The position numbers were made by a program. Below are positions 19,401-22,400 of a stretch of DNA of 64,000 nucleotides, in pieces. Where the stretch lies: NCBI RefSeq assembly GCF_036507355.1, contig NZ_AP027877.1; one strand, given 5' to 3'. The stretch is from Escherichia coli (GTDB lineage Bacteria; Pseudomonadota; Gammaproteobacteria; Enterobacterales; Enterobacteriaceae). The first letter of the stretch is position 1. Every line of letters starts with the position of its first letter.

Positions 19401-22400
19401 GGCAGCGGCTTGATTTTCATCTGCCGGGTAGCCTTCCATCTCTGGGGTGATGAACAAACGATATCCGCTGTAATCCGCTTTTCTTACCATCGTTACGGTC
19501 AACATGGCTGCGCCAGAGAGACGGGAGAGAACATAGGTGCCATTGGTTGTGGCGACATTTTCTACCGCAAAGAACGGCGCGAAGGAGCTGCCTTTACGAC
19601 CATAATCCTGATCGGGAGCAAACCATACCGCTTCACCTTTCTTCAGTGCACCGACAATGCCGCGCAGATTATTTCTGCCGATCATCGCTTTGTTAGAGCG
19701 CATGCGACCACGGGTCTGCACCCATTCCATCAGCTGATTATTATGTGGACGATAGGTGGCCATCATTGGCTGACAAAGTCCCATCACGCGGCCGCCCAAT
19801 TCCAGCGACATAAAATGGACGCCGACAACCATTACGCCGCGATTTTGCATTTGTGCGTGTTTAAGGTTATCCAACCCTTCAACATCAAACCATTTACGTA
19901 CGCGACTGTCGGGCCAGAACCATGCCATGCCGGTTTCTACCAGCGCCATGCCGAGTGAACGAAAGTTTTCGGCAATCATCTTCTCGCGCTCTTCAGCAGA
20001 ATGCTGCGGGAAACAAAGTTCCAGGTTTTTACGGGCGATAGATTCACGACGTTTCAGGAATGGTCGCGCCATTGTGCCGATACGCGTGCCGAGAAAGCAG
20101 AGAACAGGATAAGGAAGCTGTACCCAAAGCCAGAGTACACCAAGCCCAAACCATGTGAGCCAGTAGCGAGGATGCAGAAACTCGCGGGAAAATTTGCATT
20201 GTGGAAACATAGTTACCTTCTGTAGATACGAATTGTTGTATCGCAGAAGATTCCATGTCGACAGCGGTACACTCAATTGATTAGGCCATCATGTACGACA
20301 ATGGTTCCTGTAAAGAGTGTAAAGACTAGTCAGGACATAACCACGAGGAGCATGAATGCGGTATCTGTACTTTATCACTCGCTGACTGCTTTCAGCTACT
20401 GATTATTAATCGTGCAAAGTAAATATTTTTCCGTACACAACAGTCTTGCATTTAACATGCTGTTTTCATTGATGCTTAGCAAAAATTGCCAGAGGGTAAG
20501 GATTGTCTTACTATTAAAGTGACTGAAGTTACAGGTTTTTTAGCGCGGCAGGAGGTTGAGCTATGATTTATTTATGGATGTTTCTCGCCCTGTGTATTGT
20601 CTGCGTAAGCGGATACATCGGTCAGGTACTGAACGTGGTATCGGCGGTCTCTTCTTTCTTCGGCATGGTGATCCTCGCTGCACTCATTTATTACTTCACC
20701 ATGTGGTTAACTGGCGGTAATGAACTGGTGACGGGGATATTTATGTTTCTTGCCCCGGCTTGTGGCTTGATGATTCGCTTTATGGTGGGGTATGGCAGGC
20801 GATAGTGGGTCAGGATGGCTCATTTGGGCAGGTGTTCACATCAGCATCAGACATGATTGTTCACCTGCCATGTGACAGACGCTATCGCACAGGATGAATA
20901 AGATAATTCGCCTTTGTCGGAAAAGGGGGCGGAATTTCTTCTGTGAGGTTTAATGGTGGCGCATCTTCTCTCATTTTTAACAAAATCGCCTGTGATGGCT
21001 GAAATTTTGTAGAGTGAGTTGTCGTCATCGCTGACGTTTTTTCCGTCTCTTTATAGCTCGCCTCACTACCACCACCAGAAATAGAAAATGCAAAAACATT
21101 GCATGCCATAATAGAGACCAATAAAAATAAGCTAAAAAGCATTAAGTTTACTTTCATAGAAAGTTATCCTGAAAATGGTTCACTGAAAACCTACGATGTT
21201 ATGGCTGTATTTACATTTAATTAATCAGTATTTACATCGATATAATAAATGACATCTCTTTGTGGTATATAAGAATAGTTCTCTGTGACAGGAAGCATAT
21301 TCCTACAATTGTAAGACTAAAATACTTCTTGCGATAATAACTACAACTGTAAGATAACCCTTTCAAAATGACCGTTGCTCTCTGATTTCTCATTTCATGC
21401 TCACCCAATATGATGGCGGCGTTTTCTAAAACTGTTAAAGAATGAGGTAAGTATGAAACGTTTAATTATGGCTACGATGGTCACAGCAATTCTGGCATCT
21501 TCAACTGTATGGGCTGCTGATAATGCACCGGTAGCGGCACAACAGCAAACTCAGCAAGTTCAGCAAACCCAGAAAACGGCAGCAGCAGAGCGTATCTCTG
21601 AACAAGGTTTATATGCGATGCGTGACGTGCAGGTAGCGCGCCTGGCTCTGTTTCATGGCGATCCGGAAAAGGCAAAAGAACTGACCAATGAAGCTTCCGC
21701 TTTGTTGTCAGATGACAGTACCGAATGGGCAAAGTTCGCTAAGCCAGGTAAAAAGACCAATCTCAATGATGACCAATATATTGTCATTAATGCATCTGTC
21801 GGAATTTCTGAGAGTTATGTAGCAACACCCGAAAAAGAAGCCGCGATAAAAATTGCCAATGAAAAAATGGCGAAAGGGGATAAAAAGGGCGCAATGGAAG
21901 AGCTTCGCCTGGCCGGTGTTGGTGTAATGGAAAACCAATATCTGATGCCGCTTAAACAGACTCGTAATGCACTTGCTGATGCGCAGAAACTGCTTGATAA
22001 AAAGCAATACTACGAGGCAAACCTGGCGCTTAAAGGTGCGGAAGATGGAATCATCGTCGATAGCGAAGCACTGTTTGTGAACTAATGCTGACAGGCAGTA
22101 TATTGAGGTAAAGGATTTAACTCCCTCCAGCCGACAATTTTTTATGACCACAATACGACAGGTTGTGGTCATAAAATTATTTGGCGCTAGCGGTGCTATA
22201 AACTCGCATTTTATATTCCTCAAAGTAAACCGTAATAATCCCGTGTCATCACAAATCATTTATTATGTTATATTTTATGGTACGCTTAAAAAGCGTAATC
22301 ATACCCTTACTTGTAAATCACCGGCGCTTCTTACAGTTGTAAGAATAACATCACAAATGTCGCGACTCTCTCTGATTACCACGAACCAATATTTATCATA

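What the first reader, a model, noticed from the sequence alone, without database searches (positions are those of the whole stretch)
22328..22345. Exact EvgA-type palindrome between yfdX and frc
TTCTTACAGTTGTAAGAA is a perfect match to the 18-bp EvgA inverted repeat and lies inside what is usually treated as one yfdX-frc-oxc-yfdV-yfdE transcription unit. This suggests an internal EvgA-dependent promoter for the oxalate genes, in addition to the site upstream of yfdX at 21300-21317.
Basis: partly seen in the sequence, partly recalled or inferred. Interest (0 to 1): 0.3.

Follow-up and report, generated by a model that had tools for sequence, protein, structure and literature searches.

The report
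Known EvgA site upstream of frc
The 18-base inverted repeat between yfdX and frc is a real, strongly conserved binding site for the acid-response regulator EvgA that very probably drives its own promoter for the oxalate genes, but it was already described in E. coli K-12 in 2003, so it is ordinary.

Summary
Window 22328-22345 reads TTCTTACAGTTGTAAGAA, a zero-mismatch match to the EvgA consensus TTCYTACANNTGTARGAA. About 0.00008 such matches are expected per window.

The interpretation, a separate EvgA-dependent promoter for frc-oxc-yfdV-yfdE, is supported:
- A strong terminator-like hairpin follows yfdX.
- The box and the ~34 nt after it are a conservation island across ~5,400 E. coli genomes and in Yersinia vastinensis, which carries the whole cluster with evgS.
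- A similar box sits ~220 bp upstream of frc in an Erwinia genome that has no yfdX there.
- The spacing from box to -35-like and -10-like hexamers matches that at ydeP, safA, emrK and a second yfdX box.
- In an evgS-constitutive mutant frc is induced more than yfdX.

It is not new. Mullins et al. 2013 (PMC3720670) mark EvgA-binding inverted repeats upstream of both yfdX and yfdWUVE, citing Masuda & Church 2003. The window is identical to K-12 MG1655 across the box and its flanks.

What I add is inference only: a predicted start at about 22384-22389, the box centred near -49.5, and a ~210-nt frc leader. Low interest; already known.

The parts
22328..22345 (.). EvgA box upstream of frc: TTCTTACAGTTGTAAGAA, 18-bp inverted repeat (8-bp arms, GT centre)
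   Evidence: 0 mismatches to the consensus. Identical in K-12. Invariant in 7 divergent E. coli sequences. Conserved in Y. vastinensis with 1 mismatch. Literature: PMC3720670.
22350..22355 (+). Putative -35 hexamer ATCACA (4/6 to TTGACA), 4 nt after the box. Inferred.
   Evidence: In the box-anchored comparison a hexamer ending in CA sits at +5..+10 in frc, yfdX box 2, emrK, ydeP and safA. Identical in Y. vastinensis.
22374..22379 (+). Putative -10 hexamer GATTAC (3/6), 18-nt spacer. Inferred.
   Evidence: The same +29..+34 position holds TATTTT (ydeP), TATTTC (safA), GATTTC (yfdX box 2), TCTGTT (emrK) and CATACT (Erwinia frc).
22384..22389 (+). Predicted frc transcription start, equivalent to NC_000913.3 ~2493462-2493467 on the minus strand. 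Gives a ~210-nt leader. Inferred, not measured.
   Evidence: Derived from the geometry. No TSS data found in the library.
22368..22377 (+). CTCTCTGATT, a 10-mer shared at the identical offset with the yfdX promoter (21378-21387). Overlaps the putative -10.
   Evidence: same offset, 23 nt after the box end, in both. Conserved in Y. vastinensis.
22140..22176 (+). Terminator-like hairpin after yfdX (15-bp stem, 7-nt loop, then TTATTTGG)
   Evidence: RNA fold -25.4 kcal/mol, z = -7.7. Hairpin conserved in Y. vastinensis.
21300..21317 (.). EvgA box 1 upstream of yfdX (TTCCTACAATTGTAAGAC, 1 mismatch)
   Evidence: Identical in K-12.
21338..21355 (.). Degenerate second box upstream of yfdX (TAACTACAACTGTAAGAT, 3 mismatches). 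Has the same spacing to downstream elements as the frc box.
32320..32337 (.). EvgA-type box in the evgA-emrK intergenic region (ATCCTACAGGCGTAAGAA, 2 mismatches)
22596..27827 (+). Genes served by the promoter: frc 22596-23846, oxc 23900-25594, yfdV 25664-26608, yfdE 26643-27827
   Evidence: Induced in an evgS-constitutive mutant and at pH 4.4.
21453..22085 (+). yfdX, the upstream gene with its own EvgA-dependent promoter
   Evidence: PyfdX is used as a direct EvgA reporter (PMC5706723).
27883..32095 (-). evgS (27883-31476) and evgA (31481-32095): the two-component system whose response regulator recognises the box

Best explanation
The repeat is the operator of an EvgA-dependent promoter that serves frc-oxc-yfdV-yfdE independently of yfdX.

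Proposed mechanism:
1. At mildly acidic pH EvgS phosphorylates EvgA.
2. An EvgA dimer (NarL/FixJ-type helix-turn-helix) binds the two TTCTTACA half-sites at 22328-22345.
3. The bound dimer lies directly upstream of a weak core promoter: -35-like ATCACA at 22350-22355, an 18-nt spacer, and -10-like GATTAC at 22374-22379.
4. It helps RNA polymerase start at about 22384-22389. The box is then centred near -49.5 and the frc leader is ~210 nt.
5. Most transcripts from the yfdX promoter probably stop at the hairpin at 22140-22176, so the oxalate genes need this second promoter.

Shown here: the sequence match, its non-randomness, its conservation, the terminator-like hairpin and the shared geometry.
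Taken from the literature: EvgA binding and EvgA-dependent induction.
Inferred: the exact -35, -10 and start site, the RNA-polymerase recruitment step, and the efficiency of the terminator.
For: - Exact consensus match, expected 7.6e-5 times per window.
- Sequence identical to K-12 across the box and +-50 nt, so K-12 literature applies.
- PMC3720670 Fig. [quoted passage not shown]
- PMC4283999 states that an EvgA binding site is found at all genes known to be directly regulated by EvgA, and lists frc and oxc among the previously shown EvgA-regulated genes.
- The hairpin after yfdX folds at -25.4 kcal/mol, z = -7.7.
- In 7 divergent E. coli sequences the box and the next 18 nt are invariant, while the 10 nt just upstream carry 3-4 changes in B2 strains.
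- The 54-nt block from the box to GATTAC is found in 5,406 of 5,426 genomes: 3,224 identical, the rest with 1-2 differences.
- The adjacent upstream 54 nt is detectable in only 2,705 genomes and identical in none.
- Y. vastinensis carries yfdX-frc-oxc-yfdV-yfdE-evgS and keeps TTCTTACAcgcGTAAGAATAACATCACAAATcTCGCGAaTCTCTCTGATTAC nearly unchanged, while the flanks have diverged.
- Erwinia sp. ErVv1 has frc-oxc without yfdX, yet has ATCCTACAGATGTAGGAT ~220 bp upstream of frc, with CATACT at the same +29..+34 offset.
- Providencia, Moellerella and Klebsiella sp. frc loci have no box (<=3 mismatches), and neither yfdX nor evgS appears in the fetched stretch.
- The box-to-hexamer spacing is the same at ydeP, safA, emrK and yfdX box 2.
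- evgS-constitutive array log2 fold changes: frc 8.37 > yfdX 6.97 > oxc 6.59 > yfdV 6.16 > yfdE 3.57.
Against: - No transcription start, ChIP or footprint data for this site could be retrieved. The primary papers are not in the library.
- The proposed -10 (GATTAC) lacks the conserved final T, and the -35 is weak. A simple sigma-70 scan found no promoter downstream of the box. The start site could therefore lie elsewhere, for example with TATTCT at 22399-22404 as the -10.
- The U-tract after the yfdX hairpin is interrupted (TTATTTGG), so read-through from the yfdX promoter may contribute.
- yfdX, frc, oxc and yfdV rise together at pH 4.4, which a single transcript would also explain.
- Fold changes on arrays depend on baselines, so frc > yfdX is only suggestive.
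Confidence: 0.85

Rival explanations
1. The box binds EvgA but is functionally redundant. frc-oxc-yfdV-yfdE are expressed mainly by read-through from the yfdX promoter as one yfdXWUVE transcript, and the internal site adds little.
For: Many papers call the cluster one 'yfdXWUVE operon'. yfdX, frc, yfdV and oxc are induced in parallel at pH 4.4 (log2 4.89, 4.78, 4.40, 4.28). The U-tract after the yfdX hairpin is imperfect.
Against: The hairpin is strong (z = -7.7). The 54-nt block from the box to GATTAC is more conserved than its neighbour, which is not expected for a useless site. The box accompanies frc in Erwinia without yfdX. frc is induced more than yfdX in evgS-constitutive cells. PMC3720670 names yfdX and yfdWUVE as separately induced.
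Confidence: 0.08
2. EvgA acts here mainly as a counter-silencer. The AT-rich gap is coated by H-NS, and EvgA binding displaces it rather than recruiting RNA polymerase directly.
For: The gap is 35.5% G+C against 47.8% for the window. H-NS binds the promoter regions of other EvgA-circuit genes (evgA, ydeO, ydeP; PMC2984483). The core promoter hexamers are poor.
Against: Nothing was tested for frc. The fixed spacing between box and -35/-10-like elements across five promoters is what direct contact with RNA polymerase predicts, whereas counter-silencing tolerates variable spacing. The two mechanisms are not mutually exclusive.
Confidence: 0.12
3. The palindrome is a chance match, or the target of another regulator or a structural element, and has nothing to do with EvgA.
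For: No binding experiment was run here. AT-rich intergenic DNA is rich in short palindromes.
Against: Expectation is 7.6e-5 per window, and 0 of 100 shuffles reach the observed count. The other matches in the window sit at the two known EvgA-controlled regions next to evgAS itself. The literature states that EvgA binds it. An 8-bp stem with a 2-nt loop cannot form a stable RNA hairpin. No Rfam family matches.
Confidence: 0.02
4. Because the box is symmetric, it drives a leftward (antisense) transcript towards yfdX, using TATGAT on the minus strand (complement of 22300-22305).
For: A 5/6 -10 match lies 25-30 nt from the left end of the box on the minus strand (output, read by eye).
Against: The spacing differs by 4 nt from the common geometry. 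The left flank is the least conserved part, in B2 E. coli and in Y. vastinensis. There is no ORF or RNA family there.
Confidence: 0.03

Closest known systems
The yfdW (frc) upstream EvgA site of E. coli K-12, reported by Masuda & Church 2003 (Mol Microbiol 48:699) and drawn in Mullins et al. 2013, PMC3720670 Fig. 2
   Same: It is the same site. The window is identical to MG1655 across the box and 50 nt on each side. In NC_000913.3 the box is 2493506-2493523.
   Different: Nothing in the box. The window differs from K-12 at about 15 positions elsewhere in the 510-bp gap, mostly in the distal leader.
EvgA boxes of ydeP and safA(b1500)-ydeO in E. coli K-12
   Same: Same 18-bp inverted repeat and the same spacing to a -35-like hexamer ending in CA (+5..+10) and a -10-like hexamer (+29..+34).
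   Different: Their left half-sites are degenerate (AGCCTACA, TGCCTACA; 2 and 1 mismatches), whereas the frc box is perfect on both halves. Their -10-like hexamers are closer to consensus (TATTTT, TATTTC versus GATTAC).
yfdX promoter EvgA boxes (window 21300-21317 and 21338-21355)
   Same: Same regulator and same locus. Box 2 and the frc box are each followed by CTCTCTGATT at the identical offset.
   Different: yfdX has two boxes 38 bp apart (1 and 3 mismatches), while frc has one perfect box. According to PMC4759549, yfdX responds to EvgA overproduction far more strongly than yfdWUVE.
Operators of other NarL/FixJ (LuxR-type helix-turn-helix) activators, such as the lux box, RcsB box and BvgA sites (from general knowledge)
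   Same: A dimer binds an inverted repeat of about 18-20 bp placed next to or overlapping the -35 region of a weak promoter.
   Different: Different half-site sequence. The inferred centre near -49.5 is further upstream than the -42.5 typical of LuxR/TraR class II sites. This position is inferred, not measured.

Membership tests
EvgA box (operator of a directly EvgA-activated promoter) | 18-bp inverted repeat matching TTCYTACANNTGTARGAA | tested here: met
   0 mismatches at 22328-22345. Expected 7.6e-5 per window. The consensus itself is quoted from my knowledge of Masuda & Church 2003 and agrees with the five sites aligned.
EvgA box (operator of a directly EvgA-activated promoter) | Lies upstream of genes induced when EvgS/EvgA is activated | tested here: met
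   Position checked. Induction taken from the literature: frc log2FC 8.37, oxc 6.59, yfdV 6.16, yfdE 3.57 in an evgS-constitutive mutant, and induction at pH 4.4.
EvgA box (operator of a directly EvgA-activated promoter) | Direct, specific binding of EvgA to the DNA | not testable with these tools
   PMC3720670 states that EvgA binds these repeats. I recall that Masuda & Church 2003 showed gel shifts for all six upstream regions, but the paper could not be opened.
EvgA box (operator of a directly EvgA-activated promoter) | Fixed position relative to the core promoter, as at other EvgA-dependent promoters | tested here: met
   Box-anchored comparison of frc, yfdX box 2, emrK, ydeP and safA. CA at +9/+10 and TC at +26/+27 are in 5 of 5, and T at +31 is in 5 of 5, flanked by near-invariant a/t/t (4 of 5) at +30, +32 and +33. 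The hexamer assignments are inferred, and no start sites were available.
EvgA box (operator of a directly EvgA-activated promoter) | Co-occurs with evgAS in genomes | tested here: inconclusive
   Present with an adjacent evgS in E. coli and Y. vastinensis. Absent from the Providencia, Moellerella and Klebsiella sp. frc loci, which show no evgS in the fetched stretch. Erwinia sp. has a box, but evgAS could not be looked for outside the 10-kb locus.
Intrinsic (Rho-independent) terminator after yfdX | Stable G+C-containing hairpin followed by a U-tract | tested here: inconclusive
   The hairpin is stable (-25.4 kcal/mol, z = -7.7) and conserved. However, only 4 of its 15 pairs are G-C and the tail is interrupted (TTATTTGG). 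Efficiency is unknown.
Structured cis-regulatory RNA in the frc leader | Conserved secondary structure supported by covariation, or a match to a known family | tested here: not met
   No Rfam match at E <= 1. The RNAalifold covariation term is unfavourable (+3.36). Single-sequence z = -2.0.

The most novel reading that the evidence does not exclude
Two readings beyond the known operator are not excluded.

(a) The frc promoter and the proximal yfdX promoter may be copies of one module: box, then 22 nt, then CTCTCTGATT. The conserved 10-mer and the surrounding invariant block might then do more than provide a weak -10. For example, they could bind a second factor or set the start-site or discriminator properties common to the two promoters.

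(b) The ~210-nt frc leader has blocks conserved between E. coli and Yersinia (TTTYCGTCCTCAC, CTTAAATAAACGC) and a predicted pairing of its 5' end with the ribosome-binding region. It could carry post-transcriptional control of oxalate-gene expression.
Probability: 0.08. Interest if true: 0.3.

Novelty: already known. Interest (0 to 1): 0.07.

Why it matters
It matters little beyond tidying annotation. The site explains how E. coli switches on the oxalate decarboxylation genes (frc, oxc) under EvgS/EvgA control independently of yfdX. It also shows that 'yfdXWUVE' is better drawn as two EvgA-dependent units (yfdX and frc-oxc-yfdV-yfdE), as the original 2003 study proposed. The cross-genus conservation and the shared box-to-promoter spacing found here give a concrete, testable prediction of the frc start site. 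They also give a template for recognising EvgA-dependent promoters in other genomes.

Tried and rejected
- **Rfam.** A scan of 20500-23000 at E <= 1 found nothing.
- **Structured leader RNA.** The consensus fold of five sequences has an unfavourable covariation term, and the single-sequence z is only -2.0. Not claimed.
- **The 114-aa mechanical ORF 22144-22488.** It spans the terminator and the box. It is not annotated in any E. coli record, and no ORF of >=90 aa lies in the Y. vastinensis gap. Its last 12 codons are cut short by a TGA in K-12. Rejected as a gene.
- **A 'pseudo-box' upstream.** MAFFT's alignment of the two promoter regions paired yfdX box 1 with CCCTTACTTGTAAAT upstream of the frc box. 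Its half-sites are 2 nt too close and it varies among strains. Rejected.
- **A simple sigma-70 scan.** It finds no promoter-like site downstream of the box, so the core promoter had to be inferred from comparison.
- **Antisense promoter.** Not supported by conservation.
- **Literature.**
  - Masuda & Church 2002 and 2003, Fontenot 2013 and Ma 2004 are not held in the library.
  - Searches for the literal site sequences, for 'EvgA box' or the consensus, for frc or yfdX promoter names, and for EvgA ChIP, DAP-seq or SELEX gave no direct binding or start-site data for this site.
  - Genomic SELEX tables list RNA-polymerase holoenzyme peaks within frc and oxc (assigned to oxc, or to yfdV for the peak inside oxc) and in the yfdX-ypdI spacer, but not specifically at this box.
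- **Genome-contig scan.** The degenerate DNA pattern returned only 17 loci. Other Escherichia species were not recovered, so the phylogenetic sample is small.

Full report
**Observation.** Window 22328-22345 reads TTCTTACAGTTGTAAGAA.
- It matches the EvgA consensus TTCYTACANNTGTARGAA without mismatch. The 8-bp arms are perfectly complementary around a GT centre.
- From the window's base composition, an exact match is expected 7.6e-5 times per 64 kb and about 0.006 times per 5-Mb genome.
- Allowing 2 mismatches gives three matches against 0.03 expected.
  - The second is 21300-21317, upstream of yfdX.
  - The third is 32320-32337, between evgA (31481-32095, -) and emrK (32511-33674, +).
- All three therefore lie at loci tied to EvgS/EvgA.
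- Gene identities follow from ORF positions and the identical gene order in K-12 MG1655.
- The site lies in the 510-bp gap between yfdX and frc, 250 nt before the frc start codon.

**Is it already described?** Yes.
- The window is identical to MG1655 across the box and about 50 nt on each side. The yfdX promoter region is also essentially identical.
- Mullins et al. [quoted passage not shown] They cite Masuda & Church 2003.
- Johnson et al. [quoted passage not shown] They list frc and oxc among the previously shown EvgA-regulated genes.
- From memory: the 2003 abstract reports an 18-bp inverted repeat found with AlignACE in six upstream regions of seven directly regulated operons, with gel shifts for all six. 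I could not open that paper, so this detail is recollection, not a tool result.

**Evidence that the site serves its own promoter.**
1. *Terminator.* yfdX is followed by a 15-bp hairpin at 22140-22176 with a T-rich tail. As RNA it folds at -25.4 kcal/mol, z = -7.7 against shuffles. It is conserved in Yersinia.
2. *Conservation within E. coli.*
   - In seven divergent sequences, the box and the next 18 nt never change. The 10 nt just upstream carry 3-4 substitutions in B2 strains.
   - The 54-nt block from the box through GATTAC occurs in 5,406 of 5,426 complete genomes. It is identical in 3,224 and has 1-2 differences in the rest.
   - The neighbouring upstream 54 nt can be detected in only 2,705 genomes and is identical in none.
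3. *Conservation beyond E. coli.* A scan of species-representative genomes with a degenerate frc pattern gave 17 loci.
   - Yersinia vastinensis carries yfdX, frc, oxc, yfdV, yfdE and evgS in the E. coli arrangement, at 80-96% protein identity.
   - In its yfdX-frc gap, the stretch from the box to CTCTCTGATTAC is almost unchanged, while the flanking DNA has diverged.
   - Erwinia sp. ErVv1 has frc-oxc next to phage-like and IS3 sequences and no yfdX. It still has ATCCTACAGATGTAGGAT about 220 bp before frc.
   - The Providencia (five species), Moellerella and Klebsiella sp. frc loci have no box at up to 3 mismatches. No yfdX or evgS appears in their fetched stretches.
4. *Expression.* In an evgS-constitutive mutant the log2 inductions are frc 8.37, yfdX 6.97, oxc 6.59, yfdV 6.16 and yfdE 3.57. 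A gene lying behind a terminator that rises more than the gene in front of it is easier to explain with its own promoter. Array fold changes depend on baselines, so this is only suggestive.

**How it probably works.** I aligned the EvgA-dependent promoters using the box as anchor: frc, yfdX box 2 and emrK from the window, and ydeP and safA from K-12.
- All five have a hexamer ending in CA at +5..+10 after the box (frc ATCACA, emrK ATTGCA).
- All five have a -10-like hexamer at +29..+34: ydeP TATTTT, safA TATTTC, frc GATTAC, yfdX GATTTC, emrK TCTGTT.
- The Erwinia frc site has CATACT at the same place.
- For frc this predicts a -35 at 22350-22355, a -10 at 22374-22379 and a start near 22384-22389. 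The box is then centred near -49.5 and the leader is about 210 nt.
- The model is that a phospho-EvgA dimer sits just upstream of a poor -35 and helps RNA polymerase bind.
- These assignments are inferences. A plain sigma-70 scan does not find this promoter, GATTAC lacks the usual final T, and an alternative -10 (TATTCT, 22399-22404; TATTAT in Yersinia) cannot be excluded.
- The gap is AT-rich (35.5% G+C versus 47.8% for the window). H-NS binds other promoters of this circuit (PMC2984483). Relief of H-NS silencing may therefore contribute, but the fixed spacing favours direct contact.

**Rivals.**
- Read-through from the yfdX promoter as the main source of frc mRNA remains possible. The U-tract is imperfect, and the genes rise in parallel at pH 4.4. 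It does not explain the conservation of the promoter block or the Erwinia arrangement.
- A chance palindrome is excluded by the statistics and the context.
- An antisense promoter is not supported by conservation.
- A structured leader RNA is not supported. There is no Rfam match, the covariation term is unfavourable, and z = -2.0.
- The 114-aa mechanical ORF across the gap is not a gene.

**Verdict.**
- quantified conservation;
- cross-genus occurrence;
- a shared promoter geometry with a predicted start site;
- the note that yfdX has a second, weaker box with the same geometry.

Interest is low.

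Noticed in passing
window 21338-21355 and 21378-21387; 22368-22377: yfdX has a second, degenerate EvgA-type box (TAACTACAACTGTAAGAT, 3 mismatches) 38 bp downstream of the known one. This box and the frc box are each followed by the exact 10-mer CTCTCTGATT starting 23 nt after the box end. The two promoters look like copies of one module. Tandem boxes might relate to the stronger EvgA response reported for yfdX (PMC4759549).
   Followed up: partly
L023 (Yersinia vastinensis IP38594, NZ_CACVAF010000001.1) 1743-10798: The complete yfdX-frc-oxc-yfdV-yfdE-evgS cluster is present at 80-96% protein identity to the window, with conserved intergenic blocks. It lies directly beside arsB-arsC. That looks like horizontal transfer of the whole EvgAS-oxalate island between Escherichia and Yersinia.
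   Followed up: partly
L022 (Erwinia sp. ErVv1) 120-8884: frc-oxc lies next to phage-like genes (Ash family, D5-type primase) and an IS3 transposase fragment, without yfdX. It still has an EvgA-type box (2 mismatches) ~220 bp upstream of frc. Whether this genome has evgAS is unknown.
   Followed up: partly
L004 (E. coli Z503) 1501-2829; L006 (E. coli 1283) 471-1168; L002 (E. coli 536) 455-1085: Natural disruptions of the locus. In Z503 an IS1 sits 17 nt after the box, and frc through emrK is deleted, leaving an emrY fragment. In strain 1283 an IS1A lies between yfdX and the box. In strain 536 yfdX is annotated as frameshifted.
   Followed up: no
L008 (Terrisporobacter petrolearius contig, 498 bp, coverage 0.93): The contig encodes 104 residues 100% identical to the window's Frc. 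This is almost certainly E. coli contamination in that Firmicute assembly.
   Followed up: no
window 22387-22398 with 22581-22592: In the predicted fold of the frc leader, the 5' end (CAAUAUUUAU...) pairs with the ribosome-binding region (AAUAGGUAUUG). The pairs are mostly invariant, so there is no covariation evidence either way. The leader blocks TTTYCGTCCTCAC and CTTAAATAAACGC are conserved between E. coli and Yersinia, with no explanation.
   Followed up: partly
L011 (Moellerella), L013 and L017 (Providencia): These genomes have frc-oxc-yfdV followed by a second frc paralogue, plus yfdE in P. rustigianii, with no yfdX, evgS or EvgA box in the fetched stretch. The oxalate module therefore exists under different regulation outside the Escherichia-type island.
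   Followed up: no
window 21000-24000: The best complete E. coli genome is only 99.2% identical over these 3 kb, and only 38 records reach 99%. L010, labelled E. coli SCPM-O-B-8794, is clearly more divergent in the gap and has a GC centre in the box. The window may come from a lineage, or a Shigella, that is not in the E. coli collection.
   Followed up: no
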